The notes under the pieces were generated by a model. It made no database searches. It was given only the letters and a program-made list of their open reading frames with translations, and was not told the DNA's origin. The position numbers and the translations under genes are program-made. A stretch of 64,000 nucleotides of DNA from Patescibacteria group bacterium (GTDB taxonomy: Bacteria; Patescibacteriota; Minisyncoccia; UBA6257; 2-01-FULL-56-20), in the NCBI GenBank assembly GCA_024654525.1, contig JANLHI010000022.1, positions 3,931 to 67,930 on the forward strand, in the 5' to 3' direction. Shown one piece after another: positions 1-61,382 of this stretch (position 1 is its first letter; the number at the start of each line of letters is the position of its first letter).

Positions 1-1512
1 TTGAAAGGTGAGTCTAAATGCTGTGGTGCAGTGATCTGCGCATCTGCCATCATGCGCGCACGACACAGTTTTGTTTTCCAAGTCAGCAATCGCTTGATCA
101 GTTATTCTGTCGGGCAAGTCAATGTGGCTGATGTCCACCTTATAATCCCTATTGTCCGGGTCCCTCCATGCAAATCCTCTCTTTATAGCAACATCTTTAT
201 CCAGCGGGAAGAAATCCTGTGCAACTGTATCATTGTATGGATATGGTGAAAGTTCGGACGGAAAAAATTCGCCATATCCGTAAACGCGACCAATTTTATC
301 CGTGTAGGGCATGTCTTTCATGTGTTGAATTATCTGGGGCACCAAAATTTCATACTCTTCTTTCGTATATTGTTTGTTAAGGATGCAATACTCTTTGTGA
401 TGCATCCCCACGCAACCAAACATATGGGAAGAATTATTTACCACAAAACAGTATTGAGTATCGCTGCAATTTTGAAAGCTCTCAAAACAAAACTTTGATC
501 GGGATATGTGATTGCCACTTGCCGCACATTCATAGATAAGTTCGCTGTTCAGCCCATAGCGGAACTGATCATATGAGTCACGGGTTCCCGCAGAATAGAG
601 ACCTTGGCAATATCGAAGATTTTCGCCACTGTTTACGTAATAACTATCCTGGACGTTCTTGGAGTTAAAGATATATTCACCGGTGCAGTTCTCATTCTTG
701 AGTCCGCGCATGTAGCGTACCGGAAATTGTAACCAGAACTGTCTCGTCTTCTCTTTCATAGCAAGAAGAGAACTGTACGATGTTATATCCAGTTTTTTGA
801 TCTCGTGTCCGTACTCTTCCTTCGAGTAAGGCTTATTGAAGATATGGTAATTCTTGTTGCGGAGACCGACACATCCGAAAAGATTAGAACACCCGACGCA
901 GTCTCGGCTAAACGCGATATCATAGGAATCTTCGCAATACGAAGAGAAGAGTGACCGGGAGCACTTCTTGTTGAAAAATGATTCATAGCAAAGTTCGCTA
1001 TCGGTGATATATGAACTGTCGAATAGTTGTCGGCTACGTGTCGAATTATCTGAGTAAGCGCTATCTTCTATAAAAGTACATCCAAAGATCAGATAAGAAT
1101 TCTTGACATCGCTTGCGTTGTTGCAATAATCGCTGTTTACAAAATTAAGAAAGAATCTACTGGGGATTGGGGATTGCCGCAATAGCTCTCCGAATTGGGT
1201 AAAAAATGGCCTCTCCCAATCATAATCTCTGCCCGAGGCGTTTTGATCCCAGTTGTCCGAGAACCAGTAGTCCTTATCGACCACCTTCGCTCCAGAAAAA
1301 TCGTTGGTCCCTGATAGAATTTTCTCACCACTAATAACGTCTTTCGCGTGATATAGGTATCGTTCGTTCCACCATGCCATTCTCCGTTGCATCCGGCATG
1401 TAGAGCACCATGTCGGCGGTGGAACTTCTATTTTTTTGTAAAAATCAAAATCTTCCGGATCAATCGTGAACTGATTCTTGCAGTTTTGGCATGCCCGAGT
1501 TTCTGAGTCCAT
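1..1512 (-). CDS. Cys-rich repeat protein with N-terminal CxxC..CxxC zinc ribbon. Partial: C-terminus lies beyond the window start.
   Basis: Manual translation from ATG at 1512 reads more than 500 codons to the window edge without a stop. It is absent from the ORF track because no stop lies in the window. The N-terminus reads MDSETRACQNCKNQF..WCSTCRMQRRMAWWNERYLYH. The block FGCVG(L/M)..K.Y.I.NK.Y.KEEY occurs twice. Confidence 0.5.
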   Translation of the reverse strand, partial: MDSETRACQNCKNQFTIDPEDFDFYKKIEVPPPTWCSTCRMQRRMAWWNERYLYHAKDVISGEKILSGTNDFSGAKVVDKDYWFSDNWDQNASGRDYDWERPFFTQFGELLRQSPIPSRFFLNFVNSDYCNNASDVKNSYLIFGCTFIEDSAYSDNSTRSRQLFDSSYITDSELCYESFFNKKCSRSLFSSYCEDSYDIAFSRDCVGCSNLFGCVGLRNKNYHIFNKPYSKEEYGHEIKKLDITSYSSLLAMKEKTRQFWLQFPVRYMRGLKNENCTGEYIFNSKNVQDSYYVNSGENLRYCQGLYSAGTRDSYDQFRYGLNSELIYECAASGNHISRSKFCFESFQNCSDTQYCFVVNNSSHMFGCVGMHHKEYCILNKQYTKEEYEILVPQIIQHMKDMPYTDKIGRVYGYGEFFPSELSPYPYNDTVAQDFFPLDKDVAIKRGFAWRDPDNRDYKVDISHIDLPDRITDQAIADLENKTVSCAHDGRCADHCTTAFRLTFQ

Positions 1513-27012: not shown

Positions 27013-27639
27013 TTATAGACCATGCCGCGCTGCTGTTTCGGGAGTGATTCTGAAATAACATATTCCCGAATCCCTTTTTGCTTCGCCGAATGCGAGAGAG
27101 CAGTATTCCGCATTGGGAGCGCCCATCTTTTTTACAGAACACGTACAGCTCGCACGCCATGCCTCGCTCGGAAGGCGCCTTCGCGGAACTTCCATAAAGT
27201 TGAGATCTTCCCCTACTCGTCGGGATATGGGATTAGTCGTGGTCGCCAGTATATCTTTCTCCGTATGTCTGGGAAGAAACACGGAGTACATTGCGTGATT
27301 CGCACCTTTCCCTCGATATTCCGGGAATACATAGGTACTTCCAAGCTCAAACCAATTTCCGGTCAGAGGTATCAGACGCGCATGACACACCACTTCTCCA
27401 ATCGCCGTAAATCCTATTACGGAAAGCCCCTTCATAAAACTGGCGCGCACGCTCTCGAACATGACACCGAGAAGATGCGGTTCTCGCGAGAATGCGTCAA
27501 CTATTTTTCTCAGTGCGCCATTCAGATCAAAACCGTACCGTTCAATACCTGACATATCGAGACACCAGCGTATTGCTATCGGGGGCTTATTCCCCTCTAT
27601 GCATTTTCTTTTCACATCACCGCCTTTGCTCTCTTTCAT
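27013..27639 (-). CDS. GNAT family N-acetyltransferase with C-terminal Cys cluster
   Basis: VFPEYRGKGANHAM acetyl-CoA motif. RBS AAAGGA 7 nt before ATG 27639. Confidence 0.5.
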   Translation of the reverse strand: MKESKGGDVKRKCIEGNKPPIAIRWCLDMSGIERYGFDLNGALRKIVDAFSREPHLLGVMFESVRASFMKGLSVIGFTAIGEVVCHARLIPLTGNWFELGSTYVFPEYRGKGANHAMYSVFLPRHTEKDILATTTNPISRRVGEDLNFMEVPRRRLPSEAWRASCTCSVKKMGAPNAEYCSLAFGEAKRDSGICYFRITPETAARHGL

Positions 27640-27868
27640 GAAAATCCTTTCAAGTTAAGGGTTAATTTAGTAAGGAACTGTTCTCTCCCCAAAAAAAATT
27701 CAGCCTCTTTCGGGAAGAGGCTGAATGTGAGTTGGTGTTGCGTTTTTTATCGAGACGCACAACCAACCTCTTCCCACAAGAGGTCATTGCGCTTCGACTT
27801 CGAAACAAATTGAAGATGTCTCACTGCCATAATATTCAAGAGTATACTCATCTTCGCAATAGTGTCAA
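27640..27868 (-). promoter_or_regulatory. Promoter (TTGACA-16-TATACT at 27868..27841) plus an about 190-nt structured leader ending in an intrinsic terminator (27723..27687) just upstream of the GNAT gene
   Basis: Hairpins at 27766..27784 and 27701..27723 share CCTCTT/AAGAGG arms and could form alternative pairings. No known riboswitch motif was recognized. Confidence 0.35.
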
Positions 27869-27917
27869 ATGAAATCGCCGCGCATAGTGTCATGCGCGGC
27901 GTTCGTACCCAACTTCA

Positions 27918-28256
27918 TTATTCCCGTTTTTTTATATTTCTTGATATTTTCACCTTCCGCTTCACAACTTCATACCATATATTTGAAGCAACTCCAAGAT
28001 ATCCGCTAAACTTTTTAAGTTTCACATCGTAATCTCTTCCGATATGTCGGCGGACAAGCACTCGAAGCTCTGCATCAATATCAACCTTAGCTTCTTCGCA
28101 AAGCGCCAACCAGTTCCAAAGAGACTTTTCACCTTCACCAAGGAGCCGATGGTTGGACTGGGTAAGTGTGAATGATTTCTGACCGGAACATATTTTTGCT
28201 TTCGCGGGAAATACTACTCCCAACTTAAGCTGTTCTCGTAATTGCCTTTTTGTCAT
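27918..28256 (-). CDS. Hypothetical 112-aa protein, the sole gene downstream of the SAM-I riboswitch
   Basis: ORF track. Followed by a 9-bp-stem hairpin at 27877..27900. Confidence 0.5.
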   Translation of the reverse strand: MTKRQLREQLKLGVVFPAKAKICSGQKSFTLTQSNHRLLGEGEKSLWNWLALCEEAKVDIDAELRVLVRRHIGRDYDVKLKKFSGYLGVASNIWYEVVKRKVKISRNIKKRE

Positions 28257-28287
28257 ATTTTTTCCTTTTCTCTTTTTGAATACCTTT

Positions 28288-28319
28288 CAAAGAACAAAAA
28301 CAACCGCCACACGCGGTTG
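28288..28319 (-). terminator. Riboswitch expression-platform terminator (CAACCGC-gugug-GCGGUUG followed by UUUUUGUUCUUU)
   Basis: Immediately 3' of the aptamer and 5' of the ATG at 28256. Confidence 0.75.
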
Positions 28320-28333
28320 ATCTGTTCTTAAAA

Positions 28334-28434
28334 CATCTCTCCCCGTGAAGGGCAGGTTCGCACGTTACCTGACGCAGGTACGTTGCGGGCGGATATCGGG
28401 CCAGTCCCTTGGCAATCCGCACTCTTGATGTGTA
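28334..28434 (-). ncRNA. SAM-I (S-box) riboswitch aptamer
   Basis: Minus-strand RNA reads ACACAUCAAGAG-UGCGGAUUGCCAAGGGACUGGCCCGAUAUCCGC-CCGCAAC..GAGAGAUGU. AUCAAGAG, GGGACUGGCCCGAU, GCAAC and the AGAUG P1 return match the S-box consensus. Promoter upstream and terminator downstream. Confidence 0.8.
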
Positions 28435-28449
28435 TTCGGTTGTAGATAT

Positions 28450-28477
28450 ACTATACTCTCCCCGAAACCGCTGTCAA
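28450..28477 (-). promoter_or_regulatory. Sigma70-like promoter (TTGACA-16-TATAGT) driving the riboswitch
   Basis: -35 at 28477..28472, -10 at 28455..28450. Confidence 0.55.
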
Positions 28478-28500
28478 ACCCTCAAACACTTTATCATTTT

Positions 28501-28534
28501 CTCATAGGACAATTCCATAGAATTGTCCTATGAG
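28501..28534. promoter_or_regulatory. Palindrome CTCATAGGACAATTC-CATA-GAATTGTCCTATGAG, a third copy of the ArsR-1 box family (core ACAATTCnATAGAATTGT)
   Basis: Shares half-sites and 4-nt spacing with the palindromes at 59467..59504 and 59815..59844. Confidence 0.5.
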
Positions 28535-28565
28535 AAAGCAAAACATATAATTACATCCCCCCTTC

Positions 28566-30224
28566 CTAATGCCCGAAAAATCCCCGTCCTTCTTTGTCGG
28601 GAATGAGATAGAGTGAAATTCCTTTTTGCTCGCAGAGTGCAATAGTTTCCTTATCGCGCACAGAGCCGCTTGTGGAAAATATCGCCCGCACTCCCGCATC
28701 AATCAGCACTCGTGGCGCATCGGGAAACGGAAAGAAACTGTCGCTATACGCAACCGCGCCGTTCGTGTCGTGTCCTCCGCGGCGCGCACGTTTGATCGCA
28801 AGCTCCGCCGCGCCCACCCTGTCCTGCTGTCCCACACCATCGCCGAGGAGCATTCCGTTTTTTACAATCGTGATTGTGTTGCTGTTTGAAGTAGAACCCA
28901 CTGCCCACGCAAACATCATATTGCGTTCCGCCACGACATCCGCCACAGGACCGTATTTTTTTATGGATTCGCTTTTCATATCCGGAACAAAAACATAATT
29001 TGGTTGCCGTAAAAATCCTCCACGCACATAACGAATTCTCGGATGTATATCGAGTAAACCGATTCCCACATGGGAAAGATTCTCGTTCGCCACAAAACGG
29101 CATTTGTCTTTTTTTCTGCGAAGAAGTTCAATCGCCGCCGCCTCGAACTCCGGCGCAACCACCGTATCGAGCAACCGCCGATTTCCCTCTTTCATGCCAA
29201 AATTTGCGAGTGTTTCCGCTTCCATAACACCCACAGGAAAATTCGTCATTACCACTCCTCCCATAATCGCGAGCGGATCTCCGGAAATCATATTTTCAAG
29301 AACTTTTTTAGAATCACTGCCATATGCCGCACCGCAAGGATTACCATGTTTTACCGCCACTGCTATTTTTGGCACTTCTCCAAAACCCTGTTCGAATCCC
29401 GCCACGATATGCGTCACGGTCTGGAGCAGACGATCCGTATCGCACCAATTGTTATAGCTCAACGGAGTTCCTTCTACGAGGGTGAAATTATCCAGTGAAA
29501 GCGGATCATTGGTATTATTCGTGTATAACGCCGCGGGTTTTTGCCACGCATTCTCGCCGTACAAACACTCTGCCGCGCGATGCCCGAGTACTCCCGCATA
29601 CGCACCGCCTCCGTGATACGACGCAGACATAAGGCAATACTGCGCGACCGTAAATTCCGCTTTCGCCGCCAACTCCCGCACAAGTCCTTCATCCTCATAC
29701 TTATTTTTTCTGAGCCATTCTATAACCTTCATCCGATCCGCAGGGTCGGAAACCACAATCCTCCCTCCCTTCGCCGCCGAACGAAGCATGGCAGGCCCGC
29801 CTATATCCGTCATCTCTACAATCGATTCTCGAGTAGCGTTCGGTTTTGCAATTTCTTCTTCAAGCGGATATAAGTCCACACACACAAGATCAATAAAAAT
29901 AATCCCACGCTTTTCGAGTTCTGCACGATCCTCCGGCATGTCGCGCGCAAGAAGTCCCGCATGTACTTCACGTGAAAGCGTTACTACGCGATGTCCCAAA
30001 ATCGGCTCTCCCACAAGGAACGCCGCATCACGCACTTTGATACCCGCATCCGTAAGATGCTTCGCCGTGCCACCCGATGCAAGAATATCCCACCCAAGCT
30101 TTTGAAGTTCCCCCGCAAACTCTGCAATACCTTCTTTGTGGTATACGGAAATGAGCGCGGTTTTTTTTCTTACGTCCATAGTAAATAATGTTTTAACCTT
30201 TAAACTTCGCAAGTTTTGCCGCAA
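28566..30224 (-). CDS. purH: Bifunctional AICAR transformylase / IMP cyclohydrolase
   Basis: ALISVYHKEGIAEFAGEL N-terminus. About 530 aa. Likely start MDVRKK at 30179. Confidence 0.9.
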   Translation of the reverse strand: MRQNLRSLKVKTLFTMDVRKKTALISVYHKEGIAEFAGELQKLGWDILASGGTAKHLTDAGIKVRDAAFLVGEPILGHRVVTLSREVHAGLLARDMPEDRAELEKRGIIFIDLVCVDLYPLEEEIAKPNATRESIVEMTDIGGPAMLRSAAKGGRIVVSDPADRMKVIEWLRKNKYEDEGLVRELAAKAEFTVAQYCLMSASYHGGGAYAGVLGHRAAECLYGENAWQKPAALYTNNTNDPLSLDNFTLVEGTPLSYNNWCDTDRLLQTVTHIVAGFEQGFGEVPKIAVAVKHGNPCGAAYGSDSKKVLENMISGDPLAIMGGVVMTNFPVGVMEAETLANFGMKEGNRRLLDTVVAPEFEAAAIELLRRKKDKCRFVANENLSHVGIGLLDIHPRIRYVRGGFLRQPNYVFVPDMKSESIKKYGPVADVVAERNMMFAWAVGSTSNSNTITIVKNGMLLGDGVGQQDRVGAAELAIKRARRGGHDTNGAVAYSDSFFPFPDAPRVLIDAGVRAIFSTSGSVRDKETIALCEQKGISLYLIPDKEGRGFFGH

Positions 30225-58692: not shown

Positions 58693-59466
58693 TTACCCGT
58701 TCGGAAACATCTCGACTGCCCTTCGCTTTGCTTCTTCAAGAATCTGCTCCTCGCCGGGGAGAATGAGCGGCTTTCCTCTCACAATTTCTTTTACCGCGCC
58801 TTTCGCAAACATTTCAATCGTTTCAATCTGCACCTTATGCTCTACCGGCAATGCGCGGGCGGCAAGCGTTTCTGGCGTATCATCTTCTAAAATAGAAACT
58901 TGCTTTGCGTGTAATACTGCGCCTTTGTCATATTCGGTAGTCACGCGATGCGCCGTCATCTCTGTCCAAAAGTCCCGCTGCACCGCACGAACAAAAAATA
59001 ATCGTGCCGCATGCACACGCTTCCCATACATTCCTTTTCCACCGAAATCCGGCCGCCCCGGGTCAAGCGGGCCCGGATGTTGGTTTACAATCCTTCCCTC
59101 AAACGCCGCGATTACATTTTCCGGAGTTTTCACAAGCCAACCATATTGCCCCACAAAATCTACTCCACGCGCACGACATTCTTTGATAATCGACTCACCA
59201 AACTCATCACGCGAAGGAAACGCTTTTGGTGAAAGCACTATCACATCTTTTTTTGGCACGCCTGCGCGTTTCACGCGTTCGATACCGCCCGCCTCGGGTT
59301 TGCTCGCAATCACACACGCCACTTCCACGCCCGAAAGCCGTCCCATCTGTGTCGCGCGAATAATCGCCTCCGCAGTAGTCCCCCCGCCGGAAAGTAAAAT
59401 CGCAATTCTCATTATATTAAAATTCATTCTACCTTTTCTCATCCAAAAACTCGACAAGCACGCCAT
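58693..59466 (-). CDS. purN: Phosphoribosylglycinamide formyltransferase
   Basis: MRIAILLSGGGTTAEAII, NQHPGPL. Probable start at 59412 or 59427. Confidence 0.85.
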   Translation of the reverse strand: MACLSSFWMRKGRMNFNIMRIAILLSGGGTTAEAIIRATQMGRLSGVEVACVIASKPEAGGIERVKRAGVPKKDVIVLSPKAFPSRDEFGESIIKECRARGVDFVGQYGWLVKTPENVIAAFEGRIVNQHPGPLDPGRPDFGGKGMYGKRVHAARLFFVRAVQRDFWTEMTAHRVTTEYDKGAVLHAKQVSILEDDTPETLAARALPVEHKVQIETIEMFAKGAVKEIVRGKPLILPGEEQILEEAKRRAVEMFPNG

Positions 59467-59504
59467 CCTCTATGGAACAATTCTATAGAATTGTTCCATA
59501 GAGG
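59467..59504. promoter_or_regulatory. 38-bp perfect palindrome CCTCTATGGAACAATTC-TATA-GAATTGTTCCATAGAGG (ArsR-1 box), immediately upstream of purN
   Basis: Perfect reverse-complement symmetry. Confidence 0.6.
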
Positions 59505-59509
59505 AAACC

Positions 59510-59797
59510 CTATACCAGTTTGATTAAAATTCTGAAATCTTCGGGCATGTTGGCGCCCAGAGAATAAAAAACGTGTCCGTTCATTCCTTTTGCATCCACT
59601 ACATCAAGTCGTTTAAGAATAGCGAGATGGTTTGAGGTCGCTTTAAGCGAAATTTCCAACTCATCCGCAATCTGTCCCACGTGCATCGCCGGCCCTTCCG
59701 AAAGCATCACTATAATTTTTAAGCGATTCACGTTCGCCAGCGCCCGAAACACCGTAGTCCAACGTTTATGATTCCGATTTCCTTTCGCCATGCCCAT
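59510..59797 (-). CDS. ArsR/SmtB-family transcriptional regulator (paralog 1) inside the pur operon
   Basis: HTH VGQIADELEISLKATSNHLAILKRLDVV. A TATAAT at 59810..59805 sits 7 nt before ATG 59797, so the transcript may be leaderless. Confidence 0.8.
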   Translation of the reverse strand: MGMAKGNRNHKRWTTVFRALANVNRLKIIVMLSEGPAMHVGQIADELEISLKATSNHLAILKRLDVVDAKGMNGHVFYSLGANMPEDFRILIKLV

Positions 59798-59814
59798 TCC
59801 ATATATTATATCGC

Positions 59815-59844
59815 ATTGGAACAATTCTATAGAATTGTTCCAAT
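59815..59844. promoter_or_regulatory. 30-bp perfect palindrome ATTGGAACAATTC-TATA-GAATTGTTCCAAT (ArsR-1 box) overlapping the arsR-1 promoter
   Basis: Abuts the -10 element. Confidence 0.6.
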
Positions 59845-59954: not shown

Positions 59955-61382
59955 TCAACTCGCAAACAAGCTTCCCTGACGTTCATGCATCACTTCCATA
60001 ATACGGACTTCGCGAATACGTTCGCGGATATCTATCGAATATCCGCCCGTGAAGCACGAAAGATTGAACATGGTACGCGGAAGACGTGTTGCGCCCACCA
60101 ATCCACTAAGAGAAAGATAATACAGAGATGTTGCACCAAGATACCTTCCGATTTCTTCAACCGATTTATCCGTCGCGATTAAATCTTTTTGAGCCGGCGT
60201 ATCTATTCCATAAAAGTCAGGGAATAAAATCGGCGGAGAACTTATCAAGAAATGCACTTCACTCGCACCCGCCTCAAAAAGCGTTTTGATAATCCTACGC
60301 GATGTGGTGCCTCTCACAATCGAATCATCAATTAACACTACGCGCTTTCCCTTCAATACTTCCGGTAACGGCACCAATTTCATTTTCACGCCTAAATCGC
60401 GCGTATGCGAATCCGGTTCAATAAACGTGCGGTGAATATAGCGGTTTTTAAGGAGTGCGAGCTCAAGAGGAATTCCACTTTCCTGCGCATACCCAACCGC
60501 GACGTGAATCGCAGTCTCCGGAACCGGTACCACAATATCCGCGTCCGGATGATATTCTTTTGCAAGCTGAACACCGCAATTGCGACGCACTTCATAAACC
60601 GAACGTCCAAGAAACGTGCTGTCGGGACGGGCAAAATACACAAATTCAAAAATATCAAATTTTTGATCGGGCGGTACGATTTGCTCCGTTTGAATTCCCG
60701 ACTTATCCACGGTCACCATCTCACCGGGATTCACCTCACGCACAAATTCAGCTCCTATTGCGTGGAGTGCGCATGTCTCCGACGCAAATACTGTCCCGTT
60801 ACTATTAATCTTTCCCATCACAAGCGGACGAATACCGCACCCGTCACGCACCGCAACAAGGGAATCCCTTGTCATCGCCACCACCGAAAACGCACCGGTA
60901 AAAAGCGGGAACGCCTGACGCACCGCTTCACGCAACGTGCTTCCTTTTTTGAGATAATACCCCACCGCCTCCGCCATCAATTCTGAATCGTTTTTCCCTT
61001 CGACAGAGACTCCATTTGCACTTAAAAATTCTTCAAGTGCAACGGTACTCGGAAGATTCCCGTTATGCGCGAACGCAAGCGTATCGTCATACGCTTTTAC
61101 CGGCTGATTATGAAATGCATCGGTACCCTTCGAAGTCGAATAGCGAACATGTCCTATTGCACAATATCCTACAAGCGCACGAATATCTTCTTCGGCAAAC
61201 GCTTGTGCAACAAGTCCTCTCTTTCTGCAAAATCGGATTTGAGACCCGTCACTCGCCGCAATGCCCGCCCCCTCCTGTCCGCGATGCTGTAAAGAAAAAA
61301 GCCCATAGAATGCAAGTCGGCTTACGTCGAGTCCTTCGCCGAAAACACCAAACACACCGCATTTCTCATTCAACTCACGCAT
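59955..61382 (-). CDS. purF: Amidophosphoribosyltransferase with short propeptide
   Basis: MRELNEKCGVFGVFG: catalytic Cys after a propeptide, as in B. subtilis PurF. PRTase motifs. Confidence 0.9.
   Translation of the reverse strand: MRELNEKCGVFGVFGEGLDVSRLAFYGLFSLQHRGQEGAGIAASDGSQIRFCRKRGLVAQAFAEEDIRALVGYCAIGHVRYSTSKGTDAFHNQPVKAYDDTLAFAHNGNLPSTVALEEFLSANGVSVEGKNDSELMAEAVGYYLKKGSTLREAVRQAFPLFTGAFSVVAMTRDSLVAVRDGCGIRPLVMGKINSNGTVFASETCALHAIGAEFVREVNPGEMVTVDKSGIQTEQIVPPDQKFDIFEFVYFARPDSTFLGRSVYEVRRNCGVQLAKEYHPDADIVVPVPETAIHVAVGYAQESGIPLELALLKNRYIHRTFIEPDSHTRDLGVKMKLVPLPEVLKGKRVVLIDDSIVRGTTSRRIIKTLFEAGASEVHFLISSPPILFPDFYGIDTPAQKDLIATDKSVEEIGRYLGATSLYYLSLSGLVGATRLPRTMFNLSCFTGGYSIDIRERIREVRIMEVMHERQGSLFAS

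What the first reader, a model, noticed from the sequence alone, without database searches (positions are those of the whole stretch)
28288..28534. SAM-I riboswitch with promoter, aptamer and terminator controlling a single orphan 112-aa gene
On the minus strand, in order: a TTGACA-16-TATAGT promoter, an S-box aptamer carrying the hallmarks AUCAAGAG, GGGACUGGCCCGAU, GCAAC and an AGAUG P1 return, and a CAACCGC/GCGGUUG terminator with a U-tract. The gene at 27918..28256 follows and is monocistronic, with its own downstream hairpin. SAM-I normally controls met and cys biosynthesis, SAM synthetase or methionine transporters. A lone unknown small protein under SAM control is unusual and may be a new SAM-homeostasis factor. 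A third copy of the ArsR-1 palindrome lies just upstream of the -35 element.
Basis: partly seen in the sequence, partly recalled or inferred. Interest (0 to 1): 0.7.

Follow-up and report, generated by a model that had tools for sequence, protein, structure and literature searches.

The report
Variant SAM riboswitch controlling small protein
A divergent but genuine SAM-sensing riboswitch in a Patescibacteria genome switches off a small conserved protein of unknown function, and every relative of that protein we could check sits behind the same kind of riboswitch, so the protein is very likely a new, uncharacterised part of the response to SAM shortage.

The parts
28499..28536 (.). Inverted repeat TCTCATAGGACAATTC-TATG-GAATTGTCCTATGAGA. 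It lies 28 nt after the purH stop and 21 nt upstream of the -35 box. It is related to the palindromes flanking the ArsR-family gene at 59510..59824. It is a candidate operator and/or the purH 3' hairpin.
28450..28477 (-). Sigma-70-type promoter TTGACA (28477-28472), 16-nt spacer, TATAGT (28455-28450). The inferred transcription start is near A28443.
   Evidence: Similar TTGACA promoters sit at the same position in L004, L009, L011 and L013. The start site is inferred, not measured.
28430..28443 (-). 5'-terminal leader ACAACCGAAUACAC, the proposed 5' strand of the antiterminator. Its last 2 nt (AC) overlap the P1 5' strand ACAUC (28431-28427).
   Evidence: The leader is conserved in L004, L010, L018, L022 and L009.
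28330..28434 (-). SAM-I (S-box) class aptamer. P1 is ACAUC/GAUGU (28431-28427 / 28337-28333). P2a is GCGGA/UCCGC. P2b is GGG/CCC with loop ACUGG. P3 is CGCA-A-CG.../...CGUGCG. P4 is CCC/GGG. The pseudoknot pairs CUGG (28404-28401) with CCUG (28355-28352).
   Evidence: RF00162 38.2 bits. Independent clade model R1 73.5 bits, E 4.5e-22. The MFE fold is a four-way junction. Covariation.
28394..28415 (-). Variant P2 internal loop that replaces the canonical K-turn. The 5' strand is UUGCCAA (28415-28409) and the 3' strand is GAUA (28397-28394). The class consensus is RUGYNAA / RAUR.
28288..28329 (-). Intrinsic terminator. The upper stem is CAACCGC-GUGUG-GCGGUUG (28319-28301). The U-tract is UUUUUGUUCUUUG. 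The lower stem is AAGAACAGA/UUUUUGUUCUU. The loop plus 3' strand (28312-28300) is complementary to the 5' leader.
   Evidence: The same sequence is present in L004, L008, L010, L018 and L022.
28263..28267 (-). Shine-Dalgarno AAGGA, 6 nt before the ATG.
   Evidence: read directly from the sequence
27918..28256 (-). 112-aa protein, listed by NCBI as MAG hypothetical protein NUV53_02500 from a Patescibacteria group bacterium. It is a member of an unannotated conserved family with motifs PAK, SN(Y/H)R(F/L)LG, W, and SGYLGV. The model is an N-terminal helix plus a beta-alpha-alpha-beta-beta core.
27876..27901 (-). GC-rich hairpin after the stop codon (11 bp, tail AUUUCAUUUG), the likely end of the monocistronic transcript.

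Best explanation
This is a functional SAM-I (S-box) class riboswitch that works by transcription attenuation as an OFF switch. It is dedicated to a monocistronic gene for a conserved 112-aa protein. Transcription starts near 28443. When SAM is plentiful it binds the four-way-junction aptamer and locks P1 (ACAUC/GAUGU). The terminator then forms 2-4 nt downstream and transcription stops before the ORF. When SAM is scarce P1 is open. The extreme 5' end of the transcript (ACAACCG-AA-UACAC) can then pair with the terminator loop and 3' strand (GUGUG-G-CGGUUGU), which prevents the terminator hairpin and lets RNA polymerase read into the gene. The aptamer belongs to a sub-class found on Patescibacteria-type contigs in which the P2 K-turn is replaced by a conserved asymmetric 7x4 internal loop. 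The protein is a SAM-starvation-induced factor. The best guess is a small nucleic-acid-binding (R3H-like) protein rather than a metabolic enzyme. What is shown here: the sequence elements, aptamer class membership by comparative analysis, and the gene-riboswitch association. What is inferred: SAM binding, the antiterminator pairing and the protein's role.
Against: The Rfam score is below the curated gathering threshold. Compared with its closest relative L004, the window copy has lost 2 nt in J3/4 and 3 nt in the P4 loop. It has a U-U mismatch in the pseudoknot. It has A instead of G at the loop position corresponding to the K-turn 1b G. It could therefore bind SAM weakly or be decaying. Engineered replacement of the SAM-I K-turn lowers affinity about 1000-fold (PMC3672288). 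In the thermodynamic model the terminator state (-59.0 kcal/mol) is more stable than the antiterminated state (-50.3) even without ligand. The antiterminator pairing is nearly invariant across related leaders, so there is no compensatory covariation to prove it, and those loci are not independent. The fold similarity to R3H is weak: Foldseek finds nothing with E <= 0.001, the R-x3-H motif is absent, and some family members are acidic. Nothing here is experimental.
Confidence: 0.8

Rival explanations
1. The window copy is a decaying or non-responsive S-box relic. The aptamer no longer binds SAM usefully, and the leader acts as a constitutive attenuator or is simply read through.
For: It has the lowest score among its close relatives in both models: 38.2 bits in Rfam and 73.5 in R1, against 79-114 for the other P2-insertion members. 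It carries deletions in J3/4 and the P4 loop, a U-U in the pseudoknot, and GAUA instead of GAUG in the P2 loop. The terminator state is 8.7 kcal/mol more stable than the alternative.
Against: All helices, the pseudoknot partner CCUG and all near-invariant core segments are retained. A near-consensus promoter, an intact terminator and the 5' leader element are all kept. The gene is intact and conserved. L006 also has a short J3/4 and still scores 55.4 bits. From memory, CUGG/CCUG with a U-U is also the pseudoknot of the crystallised T. tengcongensis aptamer.
Confidence: 0.12
2. The variant aptamer class senses something other than SAM, for example SAH or another adenosyl-sulfur compound. This would make it a specificity variant rather than a true SAM-I.
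For: P2 differs systematically from the canonical architecture. Most target genes are unknown small proteins rather than met/cys genes.
Against: The changes lie in the peripheral kink element, not in the J1/2, P3 or P1 segments that form the pocket, and those segments are invariant in the 16-sequence alignment. One member controls metA, a classic SAM-I target. RF00162 is the best-scoring clan member.
Confidence: 0.05
3. Expression of the 112-aa gene is mainly set by a DNA-binding protein (the ArsR-family regulator encoded at 59510..59824) acting on the palindrome at 28499..28536. The riboswitch would be secondary. Alternatively, the palindrome is only the 3' hairpin of the purH transcript and is irrelevant to this gene.
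For: The palindrome core matches 17 of 18 positions of two palindromes flanking the ArsR-family gene. It lies 21 nt upstream of the -35 box.
Against: The palindrome is absent from the equivalent position in homolog loci, which have different neighbours. What is conserved with the gene is the riboswitch. The palindrome does not overlap the promoter hexamers. All three palindromes adjoin purine genes, which suggests a purine regulon rather than this gene.
Confidence: 0.15
4. The prematurely terminated leader RNA (about 150 nt) itself acts in trans as a small regulatory RNA, as reported for some Listeria SAM riboswitches. The downstream ORF would be incidental.
For: A strong promoter and efficient-looking terminator would produce an abundant short transcript.
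Against: The ORF is conserved at the protein level across 29 clusters and is always coupled to the riboswitch. No target complementarity was sought or found.
Confidence: 0.05

Closest known systems
SAM-I / S-box riboswitch (Rfam RF00162; e.g. B. subtilis yitJ, T. tengcongensis metF leaders)
   Same: It has a four-way junction P1-P4. J1/2 AUCAAGAG, the P3 GCAAC...GUGC core and the AGAUG P1 return are conserved. The P2-loop/J3-4 pseudoknot is present. An intrinsic terminator immediately downstream gives OFF-switch logic.
   Different: The score is below the Rfam gathering cut-off. The K-turn (5' GGA / 3' GAUGAA, a 3x6 loop) is replaced by a conserved 7x4 loop (RUGYNAA / RAUR). P4 is 3 bp and J3/4 is 2 nt. 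The antiterminator appears to use the transcript's 5' end and the terminator loop plus 3' strand, instead of the P1 3' strand and the terminator 5' strand. The target gene is an unannotated small protein rather than a met/cys/SAM gene.
SAM-IV (RF00634) and SAM-I/IV variant (RF01725), same Rfam clan CL00012
   Same: The ligand-pocket consensus is similar, and the peripheral architecture differs from canonical SAM-I.
   Different: Here P4 is in the SAM-I position and the SAM-I-type P2-loop/J3-4 pseudoknot covaries. RF00162 is the clan member retained as best hit. The element is therefore a SAM-I variant, not SAM-IV or SAM-I/IV.
Engineered SAM-I with the K-turn replaced by the RNase P pk-turn (Daldrop, Masquida & Lilley 2013, PMC3672288)
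   Same: It shows that a non-K-turn asymmetric loop in P2 can still support the kink, the pseudoknot and SAM binding.
   Different: That construct is artificial, is a U-rich HS3HS2 loop, and binds about 1000-fold more weakly. Here the replacement is natural, has a different sequence (RUGYNAA/RAUR) and is conserved across many loci.
R3H domain / Jag-KhpB-type small single-stranded nucleic-acid-binding domains (PDB 1ug8, 2cpm, 9lrg, 3gku)
   Different: Sequence identity is 7-12%. There is no R-x3-H signature and no Pfam/NCBIfam hit. The protein has an extra N-terminal helix. Foldseek finds no significant match. The resemblance is of fold only.

Membership tests
SAM-I riboswitch (RF00162) | Covariance-model score at or above Rfam's gathering score (44.4 bits) | tested here: not met
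   The score is 38.2 bits. E is 4.5e-5 for the window. Orthologous leaders of the same gene family score 47.9-60.5 bits, above the cut-off.
SAM-I riboswitch (RF00162) | Four-way junction with helices P1, P2, P3 and P4 in the canonical order | tested here: met
   The MFE of the 109-nt aptamer is the four-way junction. The alignment to model positions 1-108 is full length. P1, P2a, P2b and lower P3 are 90-99% paired with compensatory changes in 16 related aptamers.
SAM-I riboswitch (RF00162) | Conserved pocket/core nucleotides (J1/2 AUCAAGAG, P3 GCAAC...GUGC, P1 return AGAUG) | tested here: met
   All are present in the window and are invariant or nearly so in alignment A2. Which of them contact SAM is taken from my recollection of the crystal structures.
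SAM-I riboswitch (RF00162) | Pseudoknot between the P2 terminal loop and J3/4 | tested here: met
   The pairing is CUGG with CCNG. Across the set 95% of cells are paired, and column pair 33-95 is CG in 7 sequences and UA in 7. The window has C-G, U-U, G-C and G-C. The role of the pseudoknot is described in PMC5602112.
SAM-I riboswitch (RF00162) | Canonical K-turn in P2 (3-nt bulge followed by tandem sheared G-A / A-G pairs) | tested here: not met
   The 3' strand reads CCC-GAUA-UCCGC and the 5' strand GCGGA-UUGCCAA-GGG. There is no A-G 2b-2n pair and there are 6 extra nucleotides on the 5' strand. The same non-canonical loop is conserved in the sub-class. Whether it still kinks cannot be tested here.
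SAM-I riboswitch (RF00162) | Expression platform with mutually exclusive terminator and antiterminator coupled to P1 | tested here: inconclusive
   The terminator is confirmed. The classical antiterminator is not feasible because the terminator starts 2-4 nt after P1. An alternative pairing of the 5' leader with the terminator loop and 3' strand is significant against shuffles and is recovered by constrained folding, but it has no compensatory covariation.
SAM-I riboswitch (RF00162) | Specific binding of S-adenosylmethionine | not testable with these tools
   This needs in-line probing, ITC or in vitro transcription.
R3H domain (protein) | R-x-x-x-H signature and a sequence-profile match | tested here: not met
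   No Pfam or NCBIfam hit for the window protein, and nothing significant (best E 0.033) for any of the 28 members scanned against Pfam. No R-x3-H appears in the alignment.
R3H domain (protein) | Beta-alpha-alpha-beta-beta fold | tested here: inconclusive

The most novel reading that the evidence does not exclude
Patescibacteria of this lineage carry a SAM-starvation regulon built from copies of one variant riboswitch module (5' leader, K-turn-less aptamer, terminator). The copies sit in front of several unrelated, lineage-specific small proteins: the 112-aa R3H-like family, Zn-ribbon-like proteins, a Bro-N protein and others. In organisms that must obtain methionine or SAM from a host, the riboswitch would then read host-derived SAM as a supply signal. 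The 112-aa protein would be a dedicated nucleic-acid-binding effector that reprograms gene expression, or protects unmethylated DNA or RNA, when methyl-donor supply fails. That would be a new kind of SAM-I output with no counterpart in the Firmicute S-box regulon.
Probability: 0.2. Interest if true: 0.75.

Novelty: new variant of a known kind. Interest (0 to 1): 0.5.

Why it matters
Genes of unknown function that sit exclusively behind a riboswitch of known ligand are among the most reliable leads to new biology of that ligand. Here a conserved, confidently folded, completely unannotated small protein is tied to SAM sensing in every locus that could be tested. It occurs in ultra-small, host-dependent Patescibacteria, whose regulation is almost unexplored and for which I found no published account of SAM riboswitches. 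The aptamer sub-class is also a natural experiment in RNA architecture. The K-turn, which is thought to be needed for the P2 pseudoknot and for SAM binding, is replaced by a different conserved loop. In addition, the expression platform seems to use the transcript's 5' end as the antiterminator. Both points can be tested directly in vitro. The class model R1 also explains why standard Rfam annotation at the gathering cut-off does not report this window's copy or two of its relatives.

Tried and rejected
The word-indexed protein search found only the query itself, and the profile version found only 5 proteins. The exhaustive HMMER search was needed to reveal the family. The search for related loci with alignment A1 failed because no stretch was conserved enough. 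The exact-sequence contig look-up of the window protein and of P0014 found nothing. A narrow DNA pattern for the leader found nothing in the reference genomes. The broader P2-insertion pattern gave 12 loci, of which L012 and L016 are false positives inside coding sequence. None of those 12 loci encodes a member of the 112-aa family. hhalign shows no relationship between the family and three of the other riboswitch-controlled small proteins. Pfam, NCBIfam, PHROGs, PADLOC and a PDB sequence profile gave no significant match. Foldseek against PDB and BFVD gave nothing with E <= 0.001, and afdb50 was unavailable. There was no phage hit by tblastn and no viral-contig hit for the aptamer pattern. 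There is no conserved downstream partner gene. A classical antiterminator (P1 3' strand pairing with the terminator 5' strand) was examined and rejected for the window type, because only 2-4 nt separate P1 from the terminator. It does exist in L003, L020 and L021 by my reading of the leader sequences. A standard or reversed K-turn reading of the variant P2 loop was considered, and no assignment satisfies the G-A/A-G rule. The MAFFT alignment of all aptamers misaligned P4, so the clade model was built from a consistent subset. Literature searches for SAM riboswitches in Patescibacteria/CPR/Parcubacteria found nothing relevant.

Full report
**Observation.**

- The promoter TTGACA-16-TATAGT lies at 28477..28450.
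- An S-box-like aptamer carries AUCAAGAG, GGGACUGGCCCGAU, GCAAC and AGAUG.
- The hairpin CAACCGC-GUGUG-GCGGUUG at 28319..28301 is followed by UUUUUGUUCU.
- An AAGGA Shine-Dalgarno sits 6 nt before the ATG of a 112-aa ORF at 27918..28256.
- An 11-bp GC-rich hairpin follows the stop codon at 27901..27876.
- The next gene, a GNAT-like ORF of 208 aa, has its own promoter at 27868..27841. The 112-aa gene is therefore monocistronic.
- The flanking genes upstream are purH, purB, guaA, guaB and purC (only purH was scanned against Pfam, the others are my reading of the translations).

**Is the aptamer a SAM-I riboswitch?**

At Rfam's gathering thresholds the window yields only a tRNA. With E-value reporting, RF00162 aligns full length (model positions 1-108) to 28330..28434. 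The score is 38.2 bits against a gathering score of 44.4. E is 3.5e-7 in the local search and 4.5e-5 for the whole window against all 4227 families, where it is the only non-tRNA hit.

The score is lost in four places:
- a 6-nt insertion in the 5' strand of P2;
- a non-consensus 3' strand where the K-turn should be;
- a J3/4 that is 2 nt shorter;
- a 3-bp P4.

The MFE fold of the isolated aptamer is the canonical four-way junction.

**The comparative test.**

The 112-aa protein has no Pfam or NCBIfam match. The word-indexed search found only itself, annotated by NCBI as a hypothetical protein of a Patescibacteria group MAG. An exhaustive phmmer search of 1.84 billion cluster representatives found 29 proteins with E <= 1e-3, the query among them, and 15 with E <= 1e-10. 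Most are about 100-130 aa. They align along their whole length and share the motifs PAK, SN(Y/H)R(F/L)LG, an invariant-like W, and SGYLGV. The gene is real and is not an orphan.

I traced eleven homologs to contigs; one (P0014) was not on record, which left ten homolog loci. Scanning the upstream DNA gave the following.

| Locus | Protein | RF00162 bits | R1 bits | Note |
|---|---|---|---|---|
| window | P0001 | 38.2 | 73.5 | |
| L003 | P0018 | 60.5 | 60.1 | |
| L006 | P0003 | 55.4 | 40.5 | |
| L010 | P0007 | 50.7 | 92.6 | |
| L004 | P0002 | 47.9 | 79.0 | |
| L009 | P0005 | 38.8 | 89.9 | |
| L002 | P0028 | 32.7 | 64.5 | |
| L023 | P0010 | not scanned | 43.6 | |
| L024 | P0016 | not scanned | 25.0 | aptamer cut by the contig end |
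| L008 | P0004 | no hit | no hit | the 80-nt stub is the window-type P1 3' strand plus terminator, almost base for base |
| L001 | P0024 | no hit | no hit | only 130 nt upstream: a hairpin plus U-tract and no room for the aptamer, so undeterminable |

In every case the aptamer lies directly upstream of the gene on the same strand. There is no clear negative. The neighbouring genes differ in every locus and no downstream partner is conserved. What travels together is the riboswitch and this gene.

**An independent model and covariation.**

A pattern built on the P2 insertion retrieved twelve further loci from reference genomes and metagenomes, two of them false positives. I built covariance model R1 from seven of these aptamers. 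None comes from the window or from a locus encoding the 112-aa family. In the 64-kb window R1 hits only 28330..28433, with 73.5 bits and E about 4.5e-22.

On a 16-sequence alignment the helices P1, P2a, P2b and lower P3 and the P2-loop/J3-4 pseudoknot are 96% paired. Thirteen of 24 pairs change on both sides, 0 of 500 shuffles reach the observed values, and slid controls collapse to 32-48% paired. The pseudoknot pair at columns 33-95 is CG in seven sequences and UA in seven. The importance of this pseudoknot and of the kink in P2 for SAM-I folding is documented in PMC5602112 and PMC3672288. One member of the sub-class precedes metA, homoserine O-succinyltransferase (PF04204, E 2.6e-129). That is a classical SAM-I target and supports SAM as the ligand. 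I conclude that the element is a genuine but divergent SAM-I-class aptamer.

**What is different about the RNA.**

*The P2 loop.* The canonical P2 K-turn has 5' GGA opposite 3' GAUGAA (the T. tengcongensis sequence, recalled from memory). In this sub-class it is replaced by a 7x4 internal loop with consensus 5'-RUGYNAA / 5'-RAUR. The window has UUGCCAA / GAUA. P2a on one side covaries freely: GCGGAG/CUCCGC, GCAAAG/CUUUGC, GUAGAG/CUCUAC, GUGAAG/CUUCAC. No assignment of these nucleotides satisfies the tandem G-A/A-G rule of a K-turn in either orientation. Lilley's group showed that disrupting the K-turn abolishes SAM binding, and that an engineered pk-turn substitute still binds SAM about 1000-fold more weakly. 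A natural, conserved substitute is therefore plausible and of structural interest. How it kinks cannot be determined here.

*The expression platform.* In the window and its closest relatives (L004, L008, L010, L018, L022, L009) the terminator begins only 2-4 nt after P1. The classical antiterminator, which pairs the P1 3' strand with the terminator 5' strand, cannot form. By my reading of the leader sequences it does exist in L003, L020 and L021. Instead, the first 14 nt of the predicted transcript, ACAACCG-AA-UACAC (28443-28430), are complementary to the terminator loop and 3' strand, GUGUG-G-CGGUUGU (28312-28300). The last two of those 14 nt overlap the P1 5' strand.
- When the terminator 5' strand is blocked, this long-range helix is the best fold in the window, L004, L022 and L018, and partly in L010. 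In L018 it is the unconstrained MFE.
- The duplex energy is -15.8 kcal/mol in the window against a mean of -8.3 for shuffled leaders (10 of 2000 shuffles as good). It is -9.0 to -18.5 kcal/mol in the relatives.
- My inference is that the loop nucleotides serve as a toehold. The free 5' end captures them before the terminator 3' strand emerges, and SAM-stabilised P1 withholds that toehold.

The caveats are these. The leaders are related and nearly invariant, so there is no compensatory covariation. The terminator state is also thermodynamically favoured in the window, at -59.0 against -50.3 kcal/mol, so control would have to be kinetic.

**The protein.**

There is no R-x3-H motif. No Pfam, PHROGs or PADLOC profile gives a significant match for any member, and the PDB sequence profile gives none either. 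The family is mostly basic (median pI 9.3; the window protein has pI 10.1 and net charge +13), but a few members are acidic. No phage homolog was found.

The most likely reading is a small nucleic-acid-binding protein made when SAM is low. This is an inference from a weak fold resemblance and from charge, not a demonstrated function.

**Wider pattern.**

The same riboswitch module, sometimes with the identical 5' leader and terminator as in L018 and L022, precedes other unrelated small proteins on similar contigs:
- a Zn-ribbon-like protein (L011/L019);
- a Cys-rich protein of about 130 aa (L013/L014);
- a 102-aa protein (L015);
- a Bro-N domain protein (L018);
- a 204-aa protein (L020);
- a 114-aa protein (L022).

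L017 carries two copies 1.1 kb apart. This suggests a lineage-specific SAM-responsive regulon made mostly of uncharacterised small proteins. I found no literature on SAM riboswitches in Patescibacteria.

**The palindrome.**

The inverted repeat at 28499..28536 is real. Its core ACAATTC-TATG-GAATTGT differs at one position from the palindromes at 59466-59505 and 59815-59844, which flank an ArsR/SmtB-family HTH gene at 59510..59824. All three sit beside purine-biosynthesis genes. It may be an operator of a purine-linked regulon, the 3' hairpin of the purH transcript, or both. It is not conserved with the riboswitch-gene cassette in other loci, so I do not consider it part of the switch.

**Verdict.**

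This is a real SAM-I-class transcriptional OFF switch, a structural variant of a known kind. It is coupled to a conserved, previously unannotated small protein family in every locus that could be tested. The riboswitch assignment is well supported (confidence about 0.8). The antiterminator model is moderately supported and the protein's role is inferred. Interest is moderate (0.5). The mechanism class is known. The new points are the target family, the natural K-turn replacement and the Patescibacteria context, and all three can be tested directly.

Noticed in passing
window 27640..27868 (minus strand): A second near-consensus promoter (TTGACA-16-TATACT, 27868..27841) drives a structured leader of about 200 nt (z = -2.95). 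The leader ends in a 12-bp terminator plus U8 (27726..27698), just upstream of a GNAT-like 208-aa ORF (27013..27639). The segment GGGAAGAGG is perfectly complementary to the terminator 5' strand CCUCUUCCC, as in an attenuator or an unknown riboswitch. There is no Rfam hit at E <= 0.05.
   Followed up: partly
window 59466-59505, 59815-59844 and 28499-28536: Three related palindromes (core ACAATTC-TAT[A/G]-GAATTGT). Two flank an ArsR/SmtB-family HTH gene (59510..59824). All three lie next to purine-biosynthesis genes: purN 58693..59466, purF 59955..61382 and purH 28566..30224 (the purN and purF names are my reading of the translations). This suggests an ArsR-family regulator of a purine regulon.
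   Followed up: partly
L017 (1479-nt metagenome contig), 17-125 and 1123-1231 (minus strand): Two near-identical copies of the variant SAM-I aptamer lie 1.1 kb apart on one short contig. This implies that adjacent genes are each under their own copy of the module.
   Followed up: no
L018 695-802 and L022 7268-7383: These leaders share the window's 5' leader (ACAACCGAAUAC / ACAACUAAAUAC) and its terminator sequence almost exactly, but they precede unrelated genes (a Bro-N domain protein and a 114-aa hypothetical). The whole leader-aptamer-terminator unit therefore behaves as a reusable module.
   Followed up: partly
L013 and L014 (contigs CAZHYG010000004.1 and CAZLNR010000035.1): MAGs labelled 'uncultured Gammaproteobacteria' carry the same K-turn-less aptamer variant with a TTGACA/TATAAT promoter in front of a Cys-rich small protein. 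Either the variant is not confined to Patescibacteria or these bins are mislabelled.
   Followed up: no
L012 5677-5712 and L016 5394-5429: These matches to the P2-insertion DNA pattern fall inside a coding region upstream of a glycerol-kinase-like gene and lack the rest of the aptamer (R1 score 11.1 bits at the L012 site). They are false positives of the pattern search.
   Followed up: yes
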